Below, in pieces: positions 47,212 to 60,025 of a stretch of 64,000 bases of DNA. Positions within the stretch are counted from its first letter, which is position 1. Every line of letters starts with the position of its first letter. The notes beneath the pieces are model-generated. The model was not told the origin of the DNA. It was given only the letters and a program-made list of their open reading frames with translations, and made no database searches. Source of the DNA: an uncultured Sphingomonadaceae bacterium. Its GTDB lineage: Bacteria > Pseudomonadota > Alphaproteobacteria > Sphingomonadales > Sphingomonadaceae. The stretch spans positions 9,065 through 73,064 of the forward strand of contig CAXTTJ010000005.1 in assembly GCA_964247235.1 (NCBI GenBank), in the 5' to 3' direction. Made by a program: the position numbers and the translations under genes.

Positions 47212-48576
47212 TCAACTTTCGCGGAATGCGCGCCGGAAACTGTCAACGACCGGTTGCATCAGATACTGAAGTAAGGATCGCGACCCAAGGTTGATGAACA
47301 CTTCGGCAGGCATGCCGGAGACGAGCCGGATGTCCTTGAGCTGCCTCAGTTCTTTCACGTCCAGAACAATCTGTGTTTCGTAATAGAGCGTGTTGGTCTT
47401 GTCATCATACGTAGCATCGGGGCTGACTTCACGGACCGTGCCATGCAGCATCGGCATGGTCCGTGCCTTGTACGGAGTCAGCCGGATTTCCGCGGGCAGA
47501 TCCTGATACACGACATCAACGTCATTTGCCTTCAATCGTGCAACGACGACGATTTTTTCGTTCGCAGGGACAATATCGAGGATCGGTTGTCCGGGACCGA
47601 CGACGCCGCCGGGCGTCACCATGCGCAAATTGACGACAGTGCCATCGACCGGGGCCACGATCTGCCGCCGCCTGCTGATATCGCGGCTGACGTTCAGTTT
47701 TTCCACCATGTCAGCAAGACTGGCCTGGACATCGCGCTGTTGCGCTGCGGCGTCGGTGACCATCTGACTGCGCAGAAACGCCATCTGGGCATGGGTTTCG
47801 CCAACGGTATCACGGATCCGGGCCTGATTTCCCATCAGTTGCCCCTGCTGTCCGATCGTCGCCGCCTGCTGCCGCTGCAATGCGAGCAGGCGCGATTTGC
47901 GTTCCAGCCCCTCATCGACCAGCGTCTGGACGCCCCGGGCTTCTTCGTCGAGCAATTTGCTCTGACTGCCAAGCGCCTCGACCTGCGCGCCTGTGCTTGC
48001 CATTTCCGCACTGGACTGGCCGACACGCTGCCGCAGGATCGAGATTTGTTCGCCCATGGCACGACGCCGTGCACGAAAGACGGCATCGGATGCGGCGATG
48101 ATTGATTTCACGCTGTCATCCTTGCCGCGGTTGAGCAGTTCGGACGGATAAGTCACATGCGCACTGCCCGTGCGTTCTGCGGTCAGCCGCGCGTCCTGGG
48201 CAAGGAGCGTGTCATATGTCGTTTGCAGCGCCGTATCGCGTGCGCCGCTGGCCGTATTGTCGAGATAGACCAGCACCTGCCCCGCTTTGACACGCTGGCC
48301 TTCCTTGACGGCGATGCGCTGGATGATGCCGCCTTCGAGATGCTGGACAACTTTGCGGCCGCCGCCGTCGGATCGCAGCACGCCCTGTGCGATTGCCGCG
48401 CTGTTGAGCGGGGCAAAAATGGCCCAGAGACTGAAAAAGCCGACAAACAGACCAAGTGCCCAATAGGCTGTCCGCAAAATATGGTTAACCGCCGGCGCAT
48501 CGGGGAAATGCACGGGCACCACAGCGTTGCGCGGGACATCAATGTCCGTGGGGCGAATAGTGATAGGCGCATTCAT
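47212..48576 (-). CDS. HlyD/PrtE-type T1SS membrane fusion protein
   Basis: TM helix, VQHLEGGII, APVDGTV, SGMPAEVFI, YLMQP. Confidence 0.93.
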   Translation of the reverse strand: MNAPITIRPTDIDVPRNAVVPVHFPDAPAVNHILRTAYWALGLFVGFFSLWAIFAPLNSAAIAQGVLRSDGGGRKVVQHLEGGIIQRIAVKEGQRVKAGQVLVYLDNTASGARDTALQTTYDTLLAQDARLTAERTGSAHVTYPSELLNRGKDDSVKSIIAASDAVFRARRRAMGEQISILRQRVGQSSAEMASTGAQVEALGSQSKLLDEEARGVQTLVDEGLERKSRLLALQRQQAATIGQQGQLMGNQARIRDTVGETHAQMAFLRSQMVTDAAAQQRDVQASLADMVEKLNVSRDISRRRQIVAPVDGTVVNLRMVTPGGVVGPGQPILDIVPANEKIVVVARLKANDVDVVYQDLPAEIRLTPYKARTMPMLHGTVREVSPDATYDDKTNTLYYETQIVLDVKELRQLKDIRLVSGMPAEVFINLGSRSLLQYLMQPVVDSFRRAFRES

Positions 48577-48589
48577 GACTGTCAGTCCC

Positions 48590-50398
48590 TTATTCGGCGG
48601 GGATGGAATGAACGACCGGGCGGCTTTTCCCATTTGCAAGCGGCGGTGGCTGTTTGGATGGAGATTGCGGACGTCGCGGCGGCTGCTGTCCGGCCAGCTG
48701 TGCCATGACGTCGCGCGTCGGCCCGAAGTTCGTGACACGACCTTCCTGCAGGACGACAATCTTGTCAGCCAGGCGCAGCAGATTGGGCCGATGCGAAACA
48801 ACCGCCGTCGTAACCTGCTGCTGCTTGAGCATCCGCAGCGTTTCCATCAGCGCCGCATCGCCGCGATTGTCGAGGCTGGAATTCGGTTCATCGAGGACAA
48901 TGATTTTCGGATTGCCAAACAGCGCCCGCGCCAGGCCGATCCGTTGCCGCTGCCCCCCCGACAGCTGCAAGGCGCCGTCGCCCAGCCGGAATTCATAGCC
49001 ATCTTCAAGCTGCAGGATCATTTCATGACAGTCGGCACGTTTGGCCGCCGCAATAACCTCTGCATCCGTGGCATCGCGGCGGAACCGCGCGATATTCGCC
49101 CGGATCGATCCGGGCAACAGTTCGATATCCTGCGGCAGATACCCGACATGCGGCCCGAAATCCGACCGTTTCCAGTCGAACGTGTCGGCACCGTCCAGCC
49201 GGACATGCCCGCCCGATGGCTTGAGAACACCGACGAGCAGGCGCGACAATGTTGTCTTGCCCGATGCCGACGGGCCGACGATCGCCAGCATTTCACCGGC
49301 AGCGATGTGCAGGCTGACGTTGCGAAGAACCGCTGTCTTCATGCCCGGGGGAACATAGCTGAGCGCCTGAATCGCAAGGGCACCCGTCGGGGCGGGCAAC
49401 GCCATTTCCGATGGCCGCGGGCGTGGCAAGGTCAAGAATTCGGACAGGCGCTGCCAGGCGTGACGCGCCAGCACAAACTGCTTCCAATAGCTGATCGACG
49501 CCTCGATCGGCGCCAGCAGACGTGCGACGATGATCGACCCCGCAATCATGGCGCCACCGGTCAGCTGCAGGTCGAGGATCAGCAGCGCACCAGTGGCGAG
49601 CAATATGATCTGAATGACATAGCGGATGAACTTGCTGGTCGCGAGCACACGGCTGGCCCGTCTCTGCGTTTCATCGACCGCATCGGTTTCTTCAAGATAA
49701 CCGCGCGCCCAATGGTCGACCGTGTCCCCTGCCATGCCCATGGCGTCGATGACTTCGCTGTTGCGGACAAGGCTTTCGGCATATTGCATGTTGGCGCTCG
49801 CCTGCGCCTGATTGGCACGGATTGCGCCGCGCGTCCGCCGTTCGTTGAAAAAGGTAAGTCCGAACAGGGCCCCTGCCCCCACGCCCCCGATCAGTCCGAA
49901 CAATGGGTGCAAAAGAAAAATCACGATGAGGTACAGCGGCACCCACATCATATCGACGACACTGAAAACAGTCGGCGTGGATATGAAATTCTTGACCGTC
50001 GCGAGCTCGCGCAACGCTTCCAGCCGGGTGTTCGGCATCGTCAGGCGCAGTTCGAGCGATCGCGTCAGCAGCCGGGGCCCAAGCTGCTGGGCAACCCAGG
50101 TGCCGACACGATTTGCAACTTGCTGACGCACACCTTCGAGCATCGCGCTCAACGCCACACCCGTCAGCGTTGCCACGGTCAGAAAGAATAATGTGTCCTT
50201 GCTCTGGCTTGTGAGCACACGGTCATAAACCTGCATCATGTAAAGCGACACGGTTAGCGTCATGATGTTGATGATGCCGCTGAAAATGACGAGCTTGCCG
50301 GCCAGCGACCGGTGCGGGGTCAGCATTTCGGTCAGCAGCGAAGGCTGCGGCTGGCCCCGACCGGGGCGAAAGGGTTTTGCAAATGCCATGGGGAACAT
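48590..50398 (-). CDS. PrtD/AprD-type T1SS ABC transporter (no C39 domain)
   Basis: YMMQVYDRV, Walker A GPSASGKT, LSGGQRQRI, LDEPNSSLD. Confidence 0.93.
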   Translation of the reverse strand: MFPMAFAKPFRPGRGQPQPSLLTEMLTPHRSLAGKLVIFSGIINIMTLTVSLYMMQVYDRVLTSQSKDTLFFLTVATLTGVALSAMLEGVRQQVANRVGTWVAQQLGPRLLTRSLELRLTMPNTRLEALRELATVKNFISTPTVFSVVDMMWVPLYLIVIFLLHPLFGLIGGVGAGALFGLTFFNERRTRGAIRANQAQASANMQYAESLVRNSEVIDAMGMAGDTVDHWARGYLEETDAVDETQRRASRVLATSKFIRYVIQIILLATGALLILDLQLTGGAMIAGSIIVARLLAPIEASISYWKQFVLARHAWQRLSEFLTLPRPRPSEMALPAPTGALAIQALSYVPPGMKTAVLRNVSLHIAAGEMLAIVGPSASGKTTLSRLLVGVLKPSGGHVRLDGADTFDWKRSDFGPHVGYLPQDIELLPGSIRANIARFRRDATDAEVIAAAKRADCHEMILQLEDGYEFRLGDGALQLSGGQRQRIGLARALFGNPKIIVLDEPNSSLDNRGDAALMETLRMLKQQQVTTAVVSHRPNLLRLADKIVVLQEGRVTNFGPTRDVMAQLAGQQPPRRPQSPSKQPPPLANGKSRPVVHSIPAE

Positions 50399-50399
50399 C

Positions 50400-51596
50400 C
50401 TAATCGGCAGGTTGCTGACAAATTTGGCGAAGCGGCGGCACCAGTCCGTAGATCAGCTGGGCCAGTTCCATCTGGCGATGGACGCCAAGCTTGGCCCGGA
50501 CCCGCTTCAGGTAGGTGCGCGCGGTTTCCTCGGACAGGCCGGTTTCCTCCGCAGCTTCGTTCAAACTGCTGGCGCGGAGGAAATTGCTGAGGAACCTCTG
50601 TTCGGACGGCAGCAGCCCAAGCGCTTCGAGCACCGTCGCCGGTGCCGCCGCAGCGTGCGGGGCATGGACAAGCACCATTGCACAGCGCGACAGCGTATCC
50701 CCGCTGCGCGACACCGCCGGCACGACAAAAGCGAGACGGCATTCGCCCAGCCGCGTATCAAGACGCAGGACAATTTCCGTCTGATCCGGGTCCATTGCTG
50801 TCGCTGCGGACCGGATCGCTGCGCGCAAGTCGCGCGTTCCCGTTGTCGTGCTGCACACGATCGTCCCGTCGGCCGACCGCGACAGCGGGGTTCGCGCCGA
50901 CAGCATCGTACTGGCGGCTGCATTGCAGAATAACGGCCGCCCCGTCGCATCGACAAGGAACGTGGCAAGCGACACCCGGTCAAACATGGTTTCAAGCAAT
51001 TTGGCATGGCGTTCGTTGCGCGCAGCGGCGACATCACCCGCCGCCGACCGCGCAAGAACGGGCAGCACGTCCGACAGGACGCGCTTGCATGCCGGCGTGA
51101 AGGCCCCGGCATCGGGTGTCCGGAACAGCAGGATGCTGAATATTGCACCGCCGATCGTCGTGCGGATGGCGGCGACATGATCGAACCGGGCCAAGGCCAC
51201 CGAACTGATGGACTCAGGCGATATGCCATGAGGTTCGGCCGCTTCGCAGACTGGCCCCGTCCGGATGCGAAAAGTGAAAACATCGCCGTCCCGGCACGCT
51301 TTCCAGGCATATTCTGCATAAGCGATCAGGGCATCGGCAAGCGGCGCACTTTCACGCGCCTCGTCAAAGCCGATAAGATAGGCATGACGCCCCGCAACTG
51401 GCGCGGCCGTGACATAAGAGACGATGGCAGCCTCGATACCCAGATTTTTCAAATAGGTCCGCCAGCCCAGATCAGAACTCAGCGAATGAAAGGGTTCAGG
51501 CGTCTTTTCGCCGACCAGCGGCGCAGGCGTTGCAAAATATGACTTCGCAGACTCCGGTTCGCAAACGGCATAATCTACGTTCATGGAAAAGGACAT
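50400..51596 (-). CDS. LuxR-type HTH regulator with sensory/PAS-like domains
   Basis: C-terminal LLPSEQR...LNEAAEETGLSEETARTYLKRVRAKLGVHRQMEL. Confidence 0.8.
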   Translation of the reverse strand: MSFSMNVDYAVCEPESAKSYFATPAPLVGEKTPEPFHSLSSDLGWRTYLKNLGIEAAIVSYVTAAPVAGRHAYLIGFDEARESAPLADALIAYAEYAWKACRDGDVFTFRIRTGPVCEAAEPHGISPESISSVALARFDHVAAIRTTIGGAIFSILLFRTPDAGAFTPACKRVLSDVLPVLARSAAGDVAAARNERHAKLLETMFDRVSLATFLVDATGRPLFCNAAASTMLSARTPLSRSADGTIVCSTTTGTRDLRAAIRSAATAMDPDQTEIVLRLDTRLGECRLAFVVPAVSRSGDTLSRCAMVLVHAPHAAAAPATVLEALGLLPSEQRFLSNFLRASSLNEAAEETGLSEETARTYLKRVRAKLGVHRQMELAQLIYGLVPPLRQICQQPAD

Positions 51597-51812: not shown

Positions 51813-51832
51813 ATGTCCCCATTTGAGGATAT
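51813..51832. promoter_or_regulatory. Operator-like site ATGTCCC-N6-AGGATAT upstream of tolC / divergent regulator
   Basis: Degenerate copy of the palindrome at 53221. Confidence 0.55.
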
Positions 51833-51894
51833 TCCCATTCGCCGCCCCTCCAGTTACCCACAAATCCCATTCGCAAAGGACAAGGGGATACAGC

Positions 51895-53205
51895 GTGCGG
51901 CATTTCGCCATGGTTTCAGCGACGGTTGCCGCGACATTCATTGCCCTTGCCCCGGTTGCGCGCGCCGATGGCACGACAATGCCAGAGCTTGCGGCAATCG
52001 TTGTCGACACGAACCCCCAGATCGAAGCACAGCGCGCCGCCGTCCGCGCGCTCGAAGCACGTGTCTCGGCCGCGCACAGTGGTTATCTGCCCTCGATTGA
52101 AGCCAATGCCCTGTCACAGCGCCGTCATCTGAACCTTATCGGCAATACGGGCGATACGACATTTACAGCCGCAGAAGCGAGCGTCGAAGCGCGCCTGAGG
52201 CTTTTCGACGGATTTCGCACGTCAAACGCAATTGACTCGTCCAAGGCCGAGCTTTCGTCAGGAAAGGCGGTATTGCAAGGGACGATTTCGGACGTGCTGC
52301 TCGACTTGTTGCGGTCCGCGTCCGATGTGCATCGCGATCGTCTCATCCGTGGCTATGCGCAACAACAATATGATGCCATCGCTGACCAGCTCCGCGGGAC
52401 AAGCCGTCGCCTGTCTTTTGGCGAAGCCACCAGGACCGACGAAAGCCAGGCGACGGCACGTCTTGCCACATCGTCCACGGGCGTGCTGTCGGCAACCGAG
52501 GCACTTGAACAAAGCGCGGCCGAGTTTGAAGCGGTCAGCGGCCGGCCTGCCGATTCGGTGCCGCCGCTCCCGGAACTGGGCCTGATGCCGGTCTCGCTTG
52601 AGGATGCGAATGCGACAGCACAGGCCGAAAGCCCGCGTATCGCCGCTGCCAAGTCCACGGCCGAAGCGGCGCAAAAGAACATTGCCTTTGCCCGCGGCGC
52701 ATTGCTGCCTTCGGTCGATGTTGTCGGCGGCTATGATTATATCACGGGCGGCATTGCCAATCTTTTCACGGGTCGCCTGCCGGAGGATCGTTCGGCGGTT
52801 TATGCGGGTGTCGAAATGCGCGTTCCCATATTTCAGGGCGGGCGCGACTATGCCGAAATCCGCCGTGCCCGGGCCGTCAGCGACCAGCGCATGTCACAAG
52901 TCAACCAGGCCGCGCGCGACGTCGTTCAGGAAGTCACTGTGGCCTGGGCGCGCTGGAAATCCGCAACGGCGATTATCGACGCCGCGCGCACTGCCGTCGC
53001 CGCCAATGAGCGCGCTGCATCTGGCGTCAGCAAGGAAGCCGTCGGCGGTTCGCGCACCGTGCTCGATGTGCTTGACGCGCAGAATGAATTGCTGGCCGCA
53101 CGTGTCGCCCTCGAACGTGCCTTGCGCAATGAATTTGTGGCGCGCGCCACCGTTCTGGCGACCATTGGCAGCCTGACGCCGCAAACGATCAAAGCCGCAC
53201 CCTGA
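51895..53205 (+). CDS. TolC family outer-membrane efflux protein
   Basis: Signal peptide, SGYLPSI, GSRTVLDVLDAQNEL. GTG start with GGGGA RBS. Confidence 0.92.
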   Translation: MRHFAMVSATVAATFIALAPVARADGTTMPELAAIVVDTNPQIEAQRAAVRALEARVSAAHSGYLPSIEANALSQRRHLNLIGNTGDTTFTAAEASVEARLRLFDGFRTSNAIDSSKAELSSGKAVLQGTISDVLLDLLRSASDVHRDRLIRGYAQQQYDAIADQLRGTSRRLSFGEATRTDESQATARLATSSTGVLSATEALEQSAAEFEAVSGRPADSVPPLPELGLMPVSLEDANATAQAESPRIAAAKSTAEAAQKNIAFARGALLPSVDVVGGYDYITGGIANLFTGRLPEDRSAVYAGVEMRVPIFQGGRDYAEIRRARAVSDQRMSQVNQAARDVVQEVTVAWARWKSATAIIDAARTAVAANERAASGVSKEAVGGSRTVLDVLDAQNELLAARVALERALRNEFVARATVLATIGSLTPQTIKAAP

Positions 53206-53220
53206 TCTTCAGCCGTGACC

Positions 53221-53280
53221 ATGTCCCCACCAAGGGACATGTTCTTTATCAATAACTTGCATGTCCCCAAGCAGGGATGT
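53221..53280. promoter_or_regulatory. Two operator-like palindromes upstream of RTX gene 1
   Basis: ATGTCCC-CACCAA-GGGACAT (53221-53240) and ATGTCCC-CAAGCA-GGGATGT (53261-53280), 40 nt apart. Confidence 0.7.
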
Positions 53281-53400
53281 TGGCAGCGATCCTCACCCGT
53301 TAACCTTTGCTTTGTGGCGGGCATATTTCCGCCATGCGGGGGGCGCGTCGAGCAGAGCGAAGCGTGAGTCAACCGCCCAATAAAAAGCGAGGAAATCAAA

Positions 53401-55623
53401 ATGGCAACTCCTACAACGCCAAAAGCGGCAATTGCCCGCGCCCAGGTACTGGGTACCAATGCGGTTGACACGATCGACCTTCAGACGGTCGTTTCGACCG
53501 CAAACCTGCCTTACAACGTCCGTGCCGGTGGCGGTAACGACTTTGTCTTCGGCAATAATTACGACAACGACATGTACGGTGACAACGGCAATGACGTTGT
53601 CGTCGGCCGTCAGGGCAATGACCGCCTTGAAGGTGGCAGCGGCAATGACACGCTGATCGGCGACAATTCCGCCGTCGTCGTCACCGGACCGGGCGCCGCG
53701 ACCTTCACGGGTCTCGACCAGTCTGGCGACGGGAACGACACCCTGCTGGGCGGGTCGGGAAATGACACGGCCTGGGGCGGCGGTGGAAACGACTTTATCC
53801 ACGGCGGTTCGGGCAATGACACCCTTTATGGCCAGTCGGGTGACGACAAGGTCGTTGGCGGCACCGGTGACGACACGATGACGGGCGGAACCGGCAATGA
53901 CGACATGTTTGGTCAGGACGGCATCGACAATATTTCGGGCGATGCCGGCAACGACTATGTCGAAGGCGGCATGGGGTCCGACACGATCAATGGCGGCACC
54001 GGTGACGACATCCTGTTTGGTGACAACGGCCACAGCTTTGGTGACACCACCACAAGCGGCATGGGCTCCGGCAACGGCGCAAATCCCGTTGGTGGTCGCG
54101 AAGGTGATGCCGATTATGCCTATAACCTGTCTGGTGAATATGACACCGAAGAAGGTGACGCAGACGTCATCAACGGCGGCGACGGCAACGACCAGGTCTA
54201 TGGCCAGGGCGGCGATGACATCATCACCGGCGGCAACGGCAACGACTTGCTGTTTGGCGATGCTGGCAACGACACCATCAGCGGCGGTGCCGATGATGAC
54301 CAGCTTGATGGCGGCGAAGGCAATGACACGCTGAACGGTGACGACGGTCAGGACGAAATCGACGGTGATGCCGGCGAAGACGTCATTCGCGGCGGTGCCG
54401 GGAACGACTTCGTCCAGGGCGGTGCCGACAACGACAACATCGGCGGCGGAACCGGCGATGACGTCCTGAACGGCAACGACGGCGACGACACCGTCAACGG
54501 CGATGCCGGCAACGACATCATCGCGGGTCAGACCGGCAACGATCTGCTCAACGGTGGCGACGGCGACGACGTCATCCAGGGCAATGGCGACACGTTCTCC
54601 GATCCGTCCGATCCCGACGACATCCAGACCGATGACGATACGATCAATGGCGGCAACGGCAACGACATCATCAACGGCAACGAAGGCCAGGACCTCATCC
54701 ACGGTGATGCCGGCAACGACACCATCATGGGCGATGACGGTAACGACACCGTTTATGGCGATGCCGGTGACGACAACCTGCAGGGCAATGCCGGGGACGA
54801 CTCGCTGTCGGGCGGCACGGGCAATGACGTGATCTCCGGTGGCACCGGAAATGACGTGGCGCATGGCGATGCCGGCAACGACGTCATCAACGGCGATCTT
54901 GGCAATGACACGCTGTACGGGGATGCTGGCGACGACAGCATCGCCGGTGATCGTGGCAATGACACCATCTATGGCGGTGCCGGCAATGACGTGATCGACG
55001 GGGACACCCGTGGTGACGTCATCGGTTTGTCCACCGATGGTCGCGATACCATCTATGGTGAAGCGGGAAACGACACGATCCATGGCAATGGCGGCAACGA
55101 CTATATCGATGGCGGTGCCGACAATGACACGATCTATGGCGACACTGGCAACGACACCATCTTTGGTGGCAGCGGCGACGACTATATCGAAGGCGAATCG
55201 GGCAATGACTCGATCACCGGCGGTGCCGGCGACGACCGTCTGTCGGGCGGATCAGGCAAAGACCTGTTCAACTACAACGAAACCGAAGATGGTGCCAACT
55301 ATGGTGACGACACGATCCAGTCACCCGACGGTGGTCGTGACTTCAGCCTAGCCAACCGCGACACGATTGTCATCGATGTCGACAACCCCGGCAGCTTCGA
55401 TCATAACGACATCAGCGTTGTGACCGCAGACTGGGATGGCGACGGCGATGCCCTCGACGTCATGATCACCGGTGCCAATGGCAGCGTCCTGATCGAAGAC
55501 TTCTGGGAAGGCGCCGACGCACTCAATACGTCGCTTGCCGAAGGTGGTTTCTACGACTCGGTCGATGCCATCAACACCTACAGCCAGGGCAACGCATCTT
55601 ACGACATGATCACGTTCGTCTGA
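53401..55623 (+). CDS. RTX calcium-binding repeat protein 1 (T1SS substrate)
   Basis: Dozens of GGxGxDxLx nonapeptides; no signal peptide; C-terminus YDMITFV. Confidence 0.92.
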   Translation: MATPTTPKAAIARAQVLGTNAVDTIDLQTVVSTANLPYNVRAGGGNDFVFGNNYDNDMYGDNGNDVVVGRQGNDRLEGGSGNDTLIGDNSAVVVTGPGAATFTGLDQSGDGNDTLLGGSGNDTAWGGGGNDFIHGGSGNDTLYGQSGDDKVVGGTGDDTMTGGTGNDDMFGQDGIDNISGDAGNDYVEGGMGSDTINGGTGDDILFGDNGHSFGDTTTSGMGSGNGANPVGGREGDADYAYNLSGEYDTEEGDADVINGGDGNDQVYGQGGDDIITGGNGNDLLFGDAGNDTISGGADDDQLDGGEGNDTLNGDDGQDEIDGDAGEDVIRGGAGNDFVQGGADNDNIGGGTGDDVLNGNDGDDTVNGDAGNDIIAGQTGNDLLNGGDGDDVIQGNGDTFSDPSDPDDIQTDDDTINGGNGNDIINGNEGQDLIHGDAGNDTIMGDDGNDTVYGDAGDDNLQGNAGDDSLSGGTGNDVISGGTGNDVAHGDAGNDVINGDLGNDTLYGDAGDDSIAGDRGNDTIYGGAGNDVIDGDTRGDVIGLSTDGRDTIYGEAGNDTIHGNGGNDYIDGGADNDTIYGDTGNDTIFGGSGDDYIEGESGNDSITGGAGDDRLSGGSGKDLFNYNETEDGANYGDDTIQSPDGGRDFSLANRDTIVIDVDNPGSFDHNDISVVTADWDGDGDALDVMITGANGSVLIEDFWEGADALNTSLAEGGFYDSVDAINTYSQGNASYDMITFV

Positions 55624-55629
55624 GCAGGC

Positions 55630-55657
55630 AGTTCCCCCAATTGCGATTGGGGGAACT
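55630..55657 (+). terminator. 12-bp perfect hairpin after RTX gene 1
   Basis: AGTTCCCCCAAT-TGCG-ATTGGGGGAACT; no U-tract, so it may be stabilising rather than terminating. Confidence 0.55.
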
Positions 55658-55745
55658 AACTCAACGGACCTCTGCACTGGGGGTGAGCGGACCGCTGCTC
55701 ACCCCCTTTTTGTGTCCGGGGACTATCGGTATGACGGGCACGAAC

Positions 55746-55804
55746 ACTGCCCCGAAATGGGGCATGTGCCAGGCACCACGCGCAATGTCCCCAACAGGGA
55801 ATAT
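55746..55804. promoter_or_regulatory. Two operator-like sites upstream of RTX gene 2
   Basis: TGCCCC-GAAAT-GGGGCA (55748-55764) and ATGTCCCCAACAGGGAATAT (55785-55804). Confidence 0.55.
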
Positions 55805-55903
55805 GGGTCCCCCGCTTTGTGTCACACTCTGACAACATCACGGCTTTGTAAGGGTACGTGAAAACAATGCCGGATCGGCGTCAATGATCCGGTGAGCAGA
55901 GAA

Positions 55904-58204
55904 ATGAACCAAAACATGGTCACCGATCCTATCGTGGTCGGCCCCGTGACGCTCGTCAGCCTGGTGAGCATCACAGCCAAGCCCAAGATGCCGGGGGGGC
56001 GGTCACCCGGCACAGGCGCGCCTGCCGATGCAGATGTTGCGCCCTCTGCCGCGCTTGGCCGCGATGCAGCGACACTCGCGCCCGGACCGTCACCCGATCC
56101 TTTTGTCTTTCCAAGATCAGCAGCCGCATCATCGGCACTGCATGTCGGCCCCGATGGTGCATCGATCCGGCTCGACCCCGGCGCGAGTTATCCGCACGAC
56201 GGCGGTTTGCCATCCGATACCGGTCCGCCCGACGCCACGGTCGATCCGGACACCACCCCCGCGCCAACGCCCCCGCCCGTCATCGGCGGTGACACGGTGC
56301 CCAAGGATCCGTCACCACCCGATCCCGTGCCTGGCCCGGGCCCCACGAACGGCGACCCGAACGGATCAGGCGGTACAGGCACCGGTGCTGGTACTGGTAC
56401 CGGCGGCAGTGGGACAGGCACCGGCGGGACTGGTGCGGCTGGTGGCGGGTCGACGGGAGGCGGCCATGATACGGGTGGCACCAGTGGCGGCGGAACGGGC
56501 GGGTCGGGTGGTGGCACAAGCAGCGGCGGGGGCAGCGGCACGGGGGGTAGCGGCACTGGCGGAGGAACCGGCACGGGGGGCAGTGGAACTGGCACTGGCG
56601 GCGGAGGGACTGGCACCGGCGGCGGCAGTGGCTCTGGCGGAGGAACCGGCTCTGGCGGCAGCGGGACCGGCAGTGGCGGTGATACAGGCAGCGGTAACGG
56701 CACGGGGGGGAACGGCACGGGGGGCACCGGCGGTGGCAGCACCCCGCCTCCGCCACCACCACCTCCCCCGCCCCCGCCGCCCGATCCCAATCTTGCCGAA
56801 GACACGCCGACGACGGAACCGGTCATTGATCAGCCCGACCGGATCGACATATTCGGGACAGCGGACAGCGACGACCTGAACAGCGTCGTTGGCGCGTCGA
56901 TTTTCGGGCTTGGTGACGCTGACCGGATCACGGGATCGGCCTATGACGACCTGATCGACGGGGGCGAGGGGGATGACATCATCGCAGGCGCTGCGGGCGC
57001 CGATTATCTGATCGGAGATGCGGGCGCCGACCGGATTGATGGCGGATCCGGCGCAGACACCATCCTCGGCATGGCGGATGATGACCAGCTTTCCGGCGGT
57101 GACGGGGATGACGTCGTGGACGGCGGCGACGGCAATGACGTGATCAGCGGCGGCGCCGGACTCGACGTCCTGTTCGGCGGCAGCGGTGACGACATGCTGT
57201 CCGGTGGCGCCGGCGCTGACATGCTTGATGGCGGTGACGGCGATGACATGCTGGACGGCGGCAGCGGTCGGGACCTTCTGTTCGGCGGTGCGGGCGACGA
57301 TGTCCTTGTCGGTGGTGCCGGGCATGACAATGCAGGGCTGACTCTTGCCGAGCTCGATGCGATCCAGACGCCCGACGTGTCGATCATCGGCGGTTTGTTC
57401 GGCGGCGACGGCAATGACACTTTGTGGGGCGGACTTGGCGATGACGCCTTGAGCGGTGGGGAAGGAAATGATCGACTCGACGGCGGTGACGGCAATGATC
57501 TATTGTCCGGTGGCGCAGGCGACGACTGGCTGAGCGGCGGCACAGGTGATGACGAGATGAGCGGCGGTGATGGCAATGACACGCTGTCTGGCGATGACGG
57601 CAATGACCGTCTGCTCGGCGGCCGTGGCGATGACATGCTTGCCGGTGGTGCGGGCAACGACACCATCGACGGCGGGGATGGCAATGATCACCTGAGCGGT
57701 GACAGCGGCGCAGACCGGCTTCAGGGCGGTGCCGGCAATGACGTGATTGCCGGTGGCGCGGGGGACGACGTCCTGGCCGGCGGTGACGGCGACGACGTGC
57801 TGGGTGGGGGCGACGGCAATGACATCATCCGGGGGGGCGACGGCAATGACTGGCTGTTCGGCGGGGCAGGCAACGACATATTGTCAGGCGGCACTGGAAA
57901 AGACCGCTTTGTCTTTGATGGCAACAGCAATTTTGGCGACGACCATATCGTCAGCTTCAGCCCGCCCAACCGCGATACCGTCATCTTCGATGTCGATGAT
58001 CCCGCACATTTCGACAGCGACGAAATCTGGGTCACATTTGATCCGGTCGAATCGACGATGACTCTTCATTTTGGTGACCATGGCAGCGTCACGATGCCAG
58101 ATATTTCGGACGGTCTGTTCGAAACGATCGGCGCGCATTCGATCGATGACCTGAACGCCTTTTCGCAGGGCATTGCCGGTTATGACATGATCACGTTTAT
58201 TTGA
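55904..58204 (+). CDS. RTX calcium-binding repeat protein 2 with Pro-rich and Gly/Thr/Ser-rich N-terminal half (start 55892-55916)
   Basis: GGSGTG-type linker, poly-Pro run, GGxGxD repeats; C-terminus YDMITFI. Confidence 0.9.
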   Translation: MNQNMVTDPIVVGPVTLVSLVSITAKPKMPGGRSPGTGAPADADVAPSAALGRDAATLAPGPSPDPFVFPRSAAASSALHVGPDGASIRLDPGASYPHDGGLPSDTGPPDATVDPDTTPAPTPPPVIGGDTVPKDPSPPDPVPGPGPTNGDPNGSGGTGTGAGTGTGGSGTGTGGTGAAGGGSTGGGHDTGGTSGGGTGGSGGGTSSGGGSGTGGSGTGGGTGTGGSGTGTGGGGTGTGGGSGSGGGTGSGGSGTGSGGDTGSGNGTGGNGTGGTGGGSTPPPPPPPPPPPPPDPNLAEDTPTTEPVIDQPDRIDIFGTADSDDLNSVVGASIFGLGDADRITGSAYDDLIDGGEGDDIIAGAAGADYLIGDAGADRIDGGSGADTILGMADDDQLSGGDGDDVVDGGDGNDVISGGAGLDVLFGGSGDDMLSGGAGADMLDGGDGDDMLDGGSGRDLLFGGAGDDVLVGGAGHDNAGLTLAELDAIQTPDVSIIGGLFGGDGNDTLWGGLGDDALSGGEGNDRLDGGDGNDLLSGGAGDDWLSGGTGDDEMSGGDGNDTLSGDDGNDRLLGGRGDDMLAGGAGNDTIDGGDGNDHLSGDSGADRLQGGAGNDVIAGGAGDDVLAGGDGDDVLGGGDGNDIIRGGDGNDWLFGGAGNDILSGGTGKDRFVFDGNSNFGDDHIVSFSPPNRDTVIFDVDDPAHFDSDEIWVTFDPVESTMTLHFGDHGSVTMPDISDGLFETIGAHSIDDLNAFSQGIAGYDMITFI

Positions 58205-58214
58205 TGGTGAATGT

Positions 58215-58229
58215 GTCCCTTTTTGGGAC
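58215..58229. promoter_or_regulatory. Operator-like site upstream of the M23 gene
   Basis: GTCCC-TTTTT-GGGAC. Confidence 0.5.
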
Positions 58230-58265
58230 TGTCGACTCCGTAACGACTCTTTATGGGAAGCCTGA

Positions 58266-59255
58266 ATGACATACCGGCAACTCCTTTGGGTCGCACTTGC
58301 CGGATCAGCCACGGGAAACGTCCGTGCCGATGCGCCTGCGCTGCGCCTCGGCCTTCCGGTCATTTGCGCAATGCAGGCAGAGTGCCTGATTCAGAAACTT
58401 GTCGACATCGATCCGGGTCCGAAACGCGTCGATTATCGTTGCGGCACTCTGACTACCGATGGCCATGACGGCATCGATATTCGCGTACGGACGATGGCCG
58501 AGATGCGCAAAGGTGTCGCTGTCGTCGCCGCCGCGTCTGGCCGGGTGCTGCGCGTCCGCGATGGCGAACCCGATATGAATGTCCGCGACCGTGGCAACCT
58601 TGACGGGCGTGACGCCGGCAATGCCGTTGTCATCGATCATGGACACGGATGGGAAACCCAATACAGCCATTTACGCAACGGTACGGTGCGTGTCCGGCCC
58701 GGTGCTGTTGTCAGCGCGGGTGACCCGATCGGCAGTATCGGCATGTCGGGAAATGCAGAATTCCCGCATCTGCATTTCACGGTACGTCATGATGGTCATG
58801 CCATCGACCCCTTTACAGGGCGTGCGCCACCGTCCGCCTGTTCCGCGGACAAAACACCGGATGGGCTCTGGTCGTCAGATGCGGCGCGGGTCCTCACCTA
58901 TCGCCCGACAGCGATTATCGCCGTTGGCTTTGCAAGCGCGCCGCCATCGGCATCGCTGGTCGATCGCGACCGCAGTGTCCCACCGTACACGCCCACCACG
59001 CCCATATTGTTGTGGGCCGATGTTCTGGGGGCAATGCCGGGCGATCGTCAGCGCTTCGAAATTCGCGCGGCCTCGGGCACGCTCCTGTTCGAGCGCATAT
59101 CGATTATCGAACGGGGCGGGCTGTCATGGCTGGCCTATGCAGGACGCAAACCACCGCCCGGCGGATGGCCGAAAGGTGAAGTCACCGGACGTTATGAATT
59201 GAGCCGTTTGGGCAGGATTGTCGAGACGCGCGACACACGCGTGACGATCGGATAG
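58266..59255 (+). CDS. M23 family metallopeptidase, exported
   Basis: HDGID (HxxxD), TQYSHL, PHLHF (HxH); signal peptide. Confidence 0.9.
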   Translation: MTYRQLLWVALAGSATGNVRADAPALRLGLPVICAMQAECLIQKLVDIDPGPKRVDYRCGTLTTDGHDGIDIRVRTMAEMRKGVAVVAAASGRVLRVRDGEPDMNVRDRGNLDGRDAGNAVVIDHGHGWETQYSHLRNGTVRVRPGAVVSAGDPIGSIGMSGNAEFPHLHFTVRHDGHAIDPFTGRAPPSACSADKTPDGLWSSDAARVLTYRPTAIIAVGFASAPPSASLVDRDRSVPPYTPTTPILLWADVLGAMPGDRQRFEIRAASGTLLFERISIIERGGLSWLAYAGRKPPPGGWPKGEVTGRYELSRLGRIVETRDTRVTIG

Positions 59256-60025
59256 ATTTCCGGAAAATTGAACGGCAGGCGACTTGTCAGGAACAGGCGA
59301 ATGAGCATCGCCTGCCGCTTGACACCGGTCTTTGCAAATATCTGCTTGAGATAAACGAGCACGGTCGACGGTTTCAGATTCATGATTTCCGCAATTTCGG
59401 CAAGGGTGAAACCGTCGATCAGATGTTCGGTCAGGCGCGTCTCTCCCGGTGTCAGGCGATACAGCTCGCACAGCATCCGCACACTTTCGTGAAGCGGGCG
59501 ATCCGGGTCCGAAATCATGACCAGTGCCGCAAGGTCACAAAAGGCTGCATCCCCATCCGGTCGCCCGCTCGGTATGACGGCAACCAGCAACGACGATGTG
59601 CGTGCCCGCGAAATCCGCAGCACCGACACCGGGCTGGCCTTGGACGCTGCCCGCTTTGGATCATCGAGGATCGCGCGGATCGCCTCGGCCAGCGCAGCGC
59701 TGTCCGCTGGCGACGAAGCTTCAAGTGACCGTCCTGTCACATTCAGCCCGTCCTTGCTCGCGATCAGTTCACGCGCTGCCAGGTTCATCTCGATAACAAG
59801 ACCCGAACGATCAAGCGCGATGATGCCAAGTTCCGCTGATCGCGCCAGCCACATCACCTGATCAAGCTTTGGCAGGTAAAATTGCGCTGCTGGCTCTGTG
59901 GGGACCAGGTAGATGGGGGCCGGAGACCGGACCGCAGGCGACCCGAGGGTCAATGGCCAGCTTTTCGCTCTGCTATCTGCTTTTTTCATTTGTATATCCT
60001 TCGAGTTTGCGACCTCGAGGAACAC
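59192..60025 (-). CDS. PAS-like + LuxR-type HTH regulator
   Basis: LTPGETR...GFTLAEIAEIMNLKPSTVLVYLKQIFAKTGVKRQAML. Confidence 0.85.
   Translation of the reverse strand: MFLEVANSKDIQMKKADSRAKSWPLTLGSPAVRSPAPIYLVPTEPAAQFYLPKLDQVMWLARSAELGIIALDRSGLVIEMNLAARELIASKDGLNVTGRSLEASSPADSAALAEAIRAILDDPKRAASKASPVSVLRISRARTSSLLVAVIPSGRPDGDAAFCDLAALVMISDPDRPLHESVRMLCELYRLTPGETRLTEHLIDGFTLAEIAEIMNLKPSTVLVYLKQIFAKTGVKRQAMLIRLFLTSRLPFNFPEIYPIVTRVSRVSTILPKRLNS

What the first reader, a model, noticed from the sequence alone, without database searches (positions are those of the whole stretch)
51813..58229. Recurrent palindrome ATGTCCC-N5/6-GGGACAT defines a local regulon
Copies lie upstream of tolC (51813), rtx1 (53221 perfect; 53261), rtx2 (55748; 55785) and M23 (58215), all intergenic. 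The rtx1 and rtx2 pairs are each spaced about 40 nt. The 20-bp dyad size fits LuxR/NarL-type HTH binding, so one or both island regulators, neither of which looks like a typical AHL receptor, probably act here in response to an unknown signal.
Basis: partly seen in the sequence, partly recalled or inferred. Interest (0 to 1): 0.62.

Follow-up and report, generated by a model that had tools for sequence, protein, structure and literature searches.

The report
Operator boxes of an RTX-secretion regulon
A 20-base DNA box recurs in front of the outer-membrane channel and cargo genes of a protein-secretion island and is conserved there in about 40 Sphingomonadales species, always beside one uncharacterised PAS-sensor regulator, so it is very probably that regulator's binding site; it is a clean but ordinary kind of regulon.

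Summary
Four strong 20-bp boxes (51813, 53221, 53261, 55785; shared left half ATGTCCCCA) are the four best hits in the whole 2.46-Mb genome to a matrix built only from other species' sites. Two claimed copies are variants one base shorter. 55748 (TGCCCC-N5-GGGGCA) is conserved in the nearest relative. 58215 (GTGTCCC-N5-GGGAC) could not be tested.

The island has the order hlyD-ABC-regulator | tolC-rtx1-(rtx2)-M23. It occurs in about 40 Sphingomonadales species, with the box at the same promoters. The conserved consensus is ATGTCCCCA-W-NN-GGGAAT-R-T, an imperfect dyad. A -10-like hexamer starts 19-21 nt after each proximal box, so the box centre lies near -41 and no -35 is visible.

Among 401 family genomes, only the four with a close ortholog of the 398-aa regulator carry the box more than once. 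That regulator is modelled as PAS-PAS-LuxR-type HTH, with an invariant recognition helix. It has no AHL-binding domain. The 277-aa regulator is missing from most islands.

Best reading: the 398-aa regulator activates tolC and the cargo genes from these boxes in response to an unknown signal. Binding, sign of regulation and start sites are untested. The scan had not noted this element on other DNA.

The parts
51813..51832 (+). tolC box ATGTCCCCATTTGAGGATAT (single site in the regulator-tolC divergent intergenic region)
   Evidence: 24.2 bits with a matrix from other genomes. It sits in a conserved block in G015 within a region that is otherwise about 51% identical. Canonical equivalents are in G044 and Sphingobium.
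51852..51858 (+). -10-like element AGTTACC of the predicted tolC promoter, 20-21 nt after the box
   Evidence: AGTTACCC is conserved in G015 amid diverged flanks. The spacing matches the other promoters. The transcription start site is not mapped.
53221..53240 (+). rtx1 distal box, perfect palindrome ATGTCCCCACCAAGGGACAT
   Evidence: 24.7 bits. Conserved in G015. Other genera have a degenerate CTGCCCCAAAATGaaCCA at the same place.
53261..53280 (+). rtx1 proximal box ATGTCCCCAAGCAGGGATGT
   Evidence: 29.6 bits. The block ccATGTCCCCAwGCAGGrATrT is near-invariant across the 39 aligned rtx1 promoters.
53299..53304 (+). -10-like hexamer GTTAAC of the predicted rtx1 promoter, starting 19 nt after the box
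   Evidence: It aligns with the conserved gcCATATCc of 39 species. Inferred, not mapped.
55748..55764 (+). rtx2 distal variant dyad TGCCCCGAAATGGGGCA (19-bp type)
   Evidence: One of two such palindromes in the genome. Conserved as TGCCCCGAAATGGGTCA in G015 while the flanks diverge.
55785..55804 (+). rtx2 proximal box ATGTCCCCAACAGGGAATAT
   Evidence: Best hit of the genome, 30.0 bits. Conserved in G015 and G044. Other genera have a box at the equivalent post-rtx1 promoter.
55823..55828 (+). -10-like hexamer CACACT of the predicted rtx2 promoter, starting 19 nt after the box
   Evidence: Position read. The class consensus has CA at +21/+22. Inferred.
58215..58231 (+). Possible weak or variant site GTGTCCCTTTTTGGGAC between rtx2 and M23
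   Evidence: N5 spacing and below the matrix threshold. There is no comparative support because G015 lacks M23 and the G044 contig ends. It may instead be a hairpin (z -2.1).
50400..51596 (-). 398-aa regulator, candidate binder. Disordered residues 1-40, PAS-like 41-160, long helix, PAS-like 211-311, LuxR/GerE-type HTH 320-384. Its stop lies 1 nt from the ABC start.
   Evidence: Recognition helix LSEETARTYLKRVRAKLGV shows no substitution in the 7 displayed orthologs and is invariant or at least 90% conserved at nearly every position over 31.
59192..59989 (-). Second regulator (PAS-like + GerE HTH; probable start ATG 59989, 265 aa); probably not the box binder
   Evidence: An ortholog is beside only 2 of about 40 islands.
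51896..53205 (+). tolC-family outer-membrane channel, predicted regulon member
   Evidence: TIGR01844, 220 bits.
53401..55623 (+). rtx1, RTX-repeat protein, predicted regulon member
   Evidence: HemolysinCabind, 18 stretches.
55904..58204 (+). rtx2, RTX-repeat protein (start ATG 55904 or 55916), predicted regulon member. Two terminators (55628-55660 and 55680-55712) separate it from rtx1.
58266..59255 (+). M23 peptidase gene. A regulon member in other genera; here either read through from rtx2 or served by the 58215 variant.
47212..50398 (-). PrtD-type ABC exporter and HlyD adaptor, in one operon with the regulator; no box found before them
   Evidence: TIGR01842 632 bits; TIGR01843 360 bits.

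Best explanation
The boxes are the operator of the island's own 398-aa one-component regulator (two PAS-like sensor domains plus a LuxR/GerE-type HTH).

The regulator is transcribed with the ABC exporter and the HlyD adaptor. Probably as a dimer, it binds the imperfect 20-bp dyad ATGTCCCCA-W-NN-GGGAAT-R-T. The dyad lies where a -35 element would be (centre about -41) at the tolC, rtx1 and rtx2 promoters, and at the M23 promoter in other genera. A weaker site about 40 bp upstream helps occupancy at rtx1 and rtx2. Binding recruits RNA polymerase in the class II manner, so channel and cargo are made only when the PAS domains sense an unknown, non-AHL signal.

Shown: the sites, their uniqueness in the genome, their conservation, and their co-occurrence with the regulator. 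Inferred: which protein binds, the sign of regulation, and the start sites.
For: - Uniqueness: the four island sites are the top four of 4.9 million positions with a matrix built from other genomes. All hits with 2 or fewer mismatches are in the island.
- Footprint, nearest relative: in G015 (regulator 72% identical) the boxes are conserved blocks inside diverged intergenic DNA.
- Footprint, wider: about 40 species of Sphingomonas, Sphingobium, Sphingopyxis and Sphingorhabdus have the same gene order, with a box before rtx1 in every locus that includes that promoter and one after rtx1 in most.
- Co-occurrence: of 401 family genomes, the box pattern occurs two or more times only in G000, G109, G342 and G436. 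These are exactly the genomes with a close regulator ortholog. Nine others have a single hit, and the reversed-pattern control has 2. In three Sphingopyxis genomes, 9 of 11 hits lie in the island.
- DNA-reading helix: the HTH recognition helix stays nearly invariant while the regulators are only 39-71% identical overall.
- Geometry: a -10-like hexamer starts 19-21 nt after every proximal box, and no TTGACA-like -35 is present. A covarying 5' stem-loop follows the predicted rtx1 start.
- Regulator architecture: PAS-PAS-HTH. Fold matches are PpsR, tandem-PAS sensors, VqmA and EL222.
Against:
- The regulator's GerE match is just under Pfam's cut-off (21.5 against 23.5 bits).
- A box overlapping the -35 position could equally serve a repressor.
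- The tolC box is canonical only in the Sphingomonas/Sphingobium branch. Sphingopyxis has a degenerate dyad there.
- Related species are not independent, so conservation counts overstate the support.
- The sites used for the consensus were chosen with a matrix, which inflates apparent invariance.
Confidence: 0.7

Rival explanations
1. The same regulator binds the same boxes but as a repressor: it occludes the -35 region until a signal releases it.
For: The box covers the -35 position. Tandem sites 40 bp apart would also suit cooperative repression.
Against: No recognisable -35 hexamer lies under or beside the box, so the promoters look activator-dependent. Known PAS-LuxR-HTH proteins of this build, such as VqmA, are activators (PMC8284805).
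Confidence: 0.17
2. The 277-aa regulator binds the boxes, alone or with the 398-aa one. Alternatively it binds the shorter A/T-centred variants at 55748 and 58215.
For: It lies in the island here and in G015. It shares the PAS-HTH half with the 398-aa protein (25% identity over 179 residues). The variant dyads form a distinct 19-bp class.
Against: An ortholog is beside only 2 of about 40 box-bearing islands. Its recognition helix (KPSTVLVYLKQIFAKTGV) differs at most positions. Degenerate distal dyads also occur in Sphingopyxis, which lacks it.
Confidence: 0.08
3. The palindromes act as RNA hairpins (terminators or stabilisers) rather than protein sites.
For: 53221 follows the tolC stop by 16 nt and 58215 follows the rtx2 stop by 11 nt. 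53221 and 55748 fold much better than shuffles (z -3.7 and -3.9).
Against: The best-conserved proximal boxes fold no better than shuffles (z -0.8 to -1.4). Positions are invariant rather than covarying, and pair 5-16 is unpaired in 30 of 42 distinct boxes. The boxes lie upstream of the predicted -10 elements. Real terminators with compensatory changes lie elsewhere.
Confidence: 0.03
4. The box is read by a factor encoded outside the island, and the neighbouring regulators act elsewhere.
For: No binding data tie any protein to the box.
Against: Multiple copies of the box and the regulator ortholog coincide perfectly in 401 genomes. The sites are confined to the island in five genomes.
Confidence: 0.05

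Closest known systems
VqmA of Vibrio cholerae (PAS sensor + C-terminal LuxR-type HTH, DPO receptor)
   Same: One-component cytoplasmic regulator. The PAS domain gives ligand sensing and dimerisation, and a C-terminal HTH dimer activates a neighbouring promoter (PMC8284805). It is a fold match to the C-terminal PAS-HTH half (6ugl, 6ide, 7dwm, probability 1.0, target TM 0.37-0.43).
   Different: VqmA has one PAS domain; this protein has two and is about 150 residues longer. No sequence-level similarity was found. The operator is different, the ligand is unknown, and the targets are secretion cargo genes rather than a small RNA.
EL222 of Erythrobacter litoralis (LOV-HTH)
   Same: A PAS-family sensor fused to a LuxR-type HTH, from the same bacterial order; fold match (3p7n, 8a5r). 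From my own knowledge, EL222 is a light-activated dimeric transcription activator.
   Different: No LOV flavin-binding signature was seen in the sequence (by eye). This protein has two PAS-like domains, and its sequence and operator are different.
AHL-responsive LuxR/TraR regulators and their lux/tra boxes
   Same: An 18-20 bp dyad centred near -42 replaces the -35 element of target promoters. The regulator is encoded next to its targets (established knowledge of the lux and tra systems).
   Different: No autoinducer-binding domain is present in either regulator or anywhere in the genome, and no LuxI was found (control silent). The box sequence is unrelated to the lux or tra boxes.
PpsR/CrtJ (tandem PAS + HTH redox/light repressor of Rhodobacter)
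   Same: Best fold match for the sensor part (4hh2, E 2e-7). Both have tandem PAS domains joined by a long helix ahead of a C-terminal HTH.
   Different: From my own knowledge, the PpsR HTH is Fis-type, not LuxR-type, and PpsR binds TGT-N12-ACA as a repressor. TM-scores here are low (0.22-0.24).

Membership tests
LuxR/FixJ/NarL (GerE) HTH superfamily | C-terminal helix-turn-helix domain matching PF00196 above the gathering score | tested here: inconclusive
   398-aa protein: 21.5 bits against a cut-off of 23.5, E 1.8e-4. Weak PDB hits to DevR/DosR, E 0.1. The model shows the expected helices at 320-384. 277-aa protein: 30.1 bits, above the cut-off.
AHL quorum-sensing LuxR receptors | N-terminal autoinducer-binding domain (PF03472) | tested here: not met
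   No hit in either regulator and none in the whole genome, while the control rang in E. coli.
AHL quorum-sensing LuxR receptors | Cognate LuxI-type synthase in the genome | tested here: inconclusive
   No PF00765 hit, but the control genomes did not ring either.
PAS-sensor LuxR-HTH one-component regulators (VqmA/EL222 type) | PAS fold directly N-terminal to the HTH | tested here: met
   AF2 model (pLDDT 73.6): PAS-like alpha/beta domain 211-311 before HTH 320-384, plus a second domain at 41-160. Foldseek matches to tandem-PAS proteins, VqmA and EL222 at probability 1.0 but low TM. No Pfam PAS hit.
PAS-sensor LuxR-HTH one-component regulators (VqmA/EL222 type) | Signal-dependent dimer binding to a dyad operator | not testable with these tools
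   Needs EMSA or DAP-seq and a ligand. Only the dyad and its co-occurrence with the gene are shown.
Class II activator-dependent promoter | Operator centred near -41.5, overlapping a missing -35, at fixed distance from the -10 | tested here: inconclusive
   A -10-like hexamer starts 19-21 nt after the box in all promoter classes, and no -35 consensus is present.
Intrinsic terminator or structured RNA repeat | Stable stem kept by compensatory changes, with a U-run for terminators | tested here: not met
   Proximal boxes fold like shuffles. There is no covariation and a fixed mismatch at pair 5-16. No Rfam match.

The most novel reading that the evidence does not exclude
The 398-aa protein founds an undescribed family of dual-PAS LuxR-HTH receptors, restricted to Sphingomonadales. 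It would sense a diffusible or environmental cue that is not an AHL, and switch on a secreted RTX-protein plus M23-peptidase arsenal through this box. That would make it a new, self-contained signalling-to-secretion module. Because the operator is unique in each genome, it could also serve as an orthogonal genetic switch.
Probability: 0.3. Interest if true: 0.6.

Novelty: new member of a known kind. Interest (0 to 1): 0.42.

Why it matters
This gives a precise, testable cis-element and a candidate regulator for a type I secretion island that is conserved across an environmentally important order and has no functional annotation beyond domain names.

The operator occurs essentially only in the island. 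One knockout and a few reporter fusions would therefore define the regulon, and the PAS domains offer a route to the signal that triggers release of the RTX proteins and the M23 peptidase. In kind it is an ordinary local regulon (regulator beside its targets), so the value is in annotation and follow-up rather than in a new principle.

Tried and rejected
- Literal pattern search: only one exact match, so I moved to a mismatch search and a weight matrix.
- Further regulon members in the genome: the next-best hits (20.8, 19.2 and 16.8 bits) lie inside long open reading frames. One 16.5-bit site on contig C6 looks intergenic but was not pursued.
- Alternative sigma-factor promoter reading (GGGAAT as an ECF-type -35): rejected. 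The invariant left half would be unexplained, and the regulator has no sigma region 2; it shows only the usual weak region-4 cross-hit.
- Promoter duplication with the paralogous rtx genes: rejected. Unrelated genes (tolC, M23, an XRE gene) carry the box and the flanks are dissimilar.
- The distant homolog in G300/L064 (33% identity, near-identical recognition helix) has no island and no convincing box nearby. This is uninformative.
- Rfam scan of the island: only sub-threshold chance hits.
- Literature searches for the motif and for Sphingomonas or Sphingopyxis RTX/T1SS regulation found nothing relevant.
- Sequence search of the PDB with the regulator: only marginal HTH hits.
Full report
**Observation**

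The window lies in a 2.46-Mb, 61% GC genome in 79 contigs. Its nearest relative on record is labelled Sphingomonas sp.. The gene map around the finding comes:

| Gene | Coordinates | Strand |
|---|---|---|
| hlyD adaptor | 47212-48801 | - |
| PrtD-type ABC exporter | 48590-50398 | - |
| 398-aa regulator | 50400-51596 | - |
| tolC | 51896/51910-53205 | + |
| rtx1 | 53401-55623 | + |
| rtx2 | 55904-58204 | + |
| M23 peptidase | 58266-59255 | + |
| second regulator | 59192-59989/60025 | - |

Reading the sequence shows four strong 20-mers that share ATGTCCCCA:
- 51813 ATGTCCCCATTTGAGGATAT
- 53221 ATGTCCCCACCAAGGGACAT
- 53261 ATGTCCCCAAGCAGGGATGT
- 55785 ATGTCCCCAACAGGGAATAT

Two claimed copies are shorter variants: 55748 TGCCCCGAAATGGGGCA and 58215 GTGTCCCTTTTTGGGAC.

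With up to three mismatches the window gives 8 strand-hits against 0.44 expected. In the whole genome every hit with two or fewer mismatches is one of the four sites.

To avoid circularity I built a weight matrix only from sites found in other genomes. The four island sites are then the four best of the genome (24.2-30.0 bits). The next hits, 20.8 and 19.2 bits, lie inside long open reading frames. The two variant palindromes are rare in the genome: two and four places respectively.

**Comparative evidence**

A same-genus genome, G015 (regulator 72% identical), has the island inverted, with boxes at the same four promoters. Pairwise alignments show three things:
- The tolC box and a downstream AGTTACCC form a conserved island in an otherwise 51%-identical region.
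- The two rtx1 boxes are conserved.
- At rtx2, the variant dyad and the proximal box survive while their flanks diverge.

A scan of one genome per species returned about 40 loci from Sphingomonas, Sphingobium, Sphingopyxis, Sphingorhabdus and unnamed Sphingomonadales. All have the order hlyD-ABC-regulator | tolC-rtx1-(rtx2)-M23. The boxes are distributed as follows:
- Before rtx1 in every locus that includes that promoter.
- After rtx1, before M23 or an intervening gene, in most loci.
- In Sphingopyxis, also before an XRE-type gene downstream of hlyD.

Aligning 39 rtx1 promoters gives a near-invariant ccATGTCCCCAwGCAGGrATrT. It is followed 18-19 nt later by gcCATATCc, and about 40 bp upstream lies a degenerate CTGCCCCAAAATGaaCCA. 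Over 42 distinct boxes, T4, C5-C8, G15 and T18 are invariant (G14 in 41 of 42). The right half is GGGAAT rather than GGGACA, so the element is an imperfect dyad. These sites were selected with a matrix, which exaggerates the invariance.

**Which protein binds?**

The 398-aa regulator is present beside every box-bearing island. An ortholog of the 277-aa regulator is present in only two.

In a draw of 401 family genomes, a close ortholog of the 398-aa regulator was found in G000, G109, G342 and G436. The pattern ATGTCCCCANNNNGGNAT occurs two or more times in exactly those four genomes. Nine others have one hit each, and the reversed-pattern control gives two hits. In three Sphingopyxis genomes, 9 of 11 hits to a looser pattern lie in the island.

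The recognition helix LSEETARTYLKRVRAKLGV is nearly invariant across 31 orthologs that are only 39-71% identical overall. The 277-aa protein has a different helix. I therefore assign the box to the 398-aa regulator. This is an inference from co-occurrence, not a demonstration.

**What kind of regulator?**

Pfam finds only a sub-threshold GerE HTH in the 398-aa protein (21.5 against 23.5 bits) and a supra-threshold one in the 277-aa protein. No autoinducer-binding domain exists in either protein or in the genome. No LuxI was found, though that search's control was silent.

An AlphaFold model built on 31 orthologs (pLDDT 73.6) shows this layout:
- a disordered N-terminus (1-40)
- an alpha/beta domain (41-160)
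- a long helix (168-207)
- a second PAS-like domain (211-311)
- the HTH (320-384)

Foldseek matches PpsR without its HTH, FixL and LOV-PAS tandem sensors, and the PAS-LuxR-HTH activators VqmA and EL222. All matches have probability 1.0 but low TM-scores. VqmA is a PAS-plus-HTH dimeric activator (PMC8284805).

**Mechanism**

A -10-like hexamer begins 19-21 nt after every proximal box:
- GTTAAC at 53299
- CACACT at 55823
- AGTTAC at 51852
- CATATC or CAnTTT in other genera

The box then spans roughly -50 to -31, centred near -41. No TTGACA-like -35 is visible. This is the geometry of class II activators such as LuxR and TraR (established knowledge).

A stem-loop with covariation in five of eight pairs begins just after the predicted rtx1 start, which fits that placement.

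The regulator's stop lies one base from the ABC start, so regulator and exporter form one operon without a box. Channel and cargo carry boxes. I read this as the exporter and sensor being made first, with cargo following on signal.

**Rivals**

- *Repressor reading:* fits the position but not the missing -35.
- *RNA hairpin reading:* fails. The conserved proximal boxes fold no better than shuffles (z -0.8 to -1.4). Only the two perfect palindromes fold well. Pair 5-16 is unpaired in 30 of 42 boxes and nothing covaries. Genuine terminators with compensatory changes lie elsewhere, at 55628-55712.
- *Sigma-factor promoter reading:* leaves the invariant left half unexplained.
- *Duplication with the rtx paralogs:* does not explain boxes before tolC, M23 and an XRE gene.

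**Open points**

- *58215:* this variant between rtx2 and M23 cannot be judged. M23 carries a canonical box in other genera. Here the intergenic space is only 61 nt, G015 lacks M23, and the G044 contig ends.
- *tolC box:* it is canonical only in the Sphingomonas/Sphingobium branch. Sphingopyxis keeps a degenerate dyad ACATATCCGTTTGGGTAGTT at that place.

**Novelty**

Full-text searches found no description of the motif or of regulation of such islands in Sphingomonas or Sphingopyxis. The scan's earlier notes cover only this same stretch.

In kind this is a local regulon of a PAS-LuxR-HTH one-component regulator. That makes it a new member of a known kind, with an unusually clean and genome-unique operator.

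Noticed in passing
window 53306-53400 (rtx1 leader): The rtx1 leader has a conserved 5' stem-loop just after the predicted -10. It shows covariation in 5 of 8 pairs over 12 species and is followed by a G-run and further conserved blocks. There is no Rfam match. It may stabilise or regulate the rtx1 mRNA.
   Followed up: partly
window 59987-60024, minus strand (luxR277 leader and start): The 277-aa ORF probably starts at ATG 59989 (MKKADS, 265 aa). A 28-nt leader block (GTTCCTCGAGGTCGCAAACTCGAAGGAT) is identical in G015, while the rest of the upstream region is about 36% identical. It can pair so as to cover the GAAGGA ribosome-binding site.
   Followed up: partly
L020 3177-6150 and equivalents in L021, L022, L036-L063: Sphingopyxis-type islands carry two extra genes after hlyD: an Omp85-like 762-aa protein and, behind a canonical box, a 138-aa XRE-family HTH gene. 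Neither has an ortholog in the window's genome.
   Followed up: partly
L020 15100-15125 and 3745-3770; same in about 25 Sphingopyxis loci: In the box promoters before M23 and the XRE gene, the spacer between box and -10 holds a conserved inverted repeat GGAAAC-N5-6-TTTCC. It could be the site of a second regulator. It is absent from the window's promoters.
   Followed up: no
L028-L063, tolC-regulator intergenic regions: A degenerate dyad ACATATCCGTTTGGGTAGTT is conserved in Sphingopyxis-type islands at the place where Sphingomonas and Sphingobium have the canonical tolC box.
   Followed up: no
window 55628-55660 and 55680-55712: Two terminator-like hairpins follow rtx1. The first shows compensatory changes against G015, so rtx2 has its own promoter.
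   Followed up: partly
G000 contig C6 75746-75765, minus strand (outside the window): A weak box-like site, CGGTCCCCATGCGGGAATTT (16.5 bits), lies in an apparently intergenic stretch. It is the only off-island candidate not obviously inside a coding frame.
   Followed up: no
L053 (contig labelled Cypionkella sp. MAG): A complete island with box and regulator (43% identical) sits on a contig binned as a Rhodobacterales genome. This is either horizontal transfer or mis-binning.
   Followed up: no
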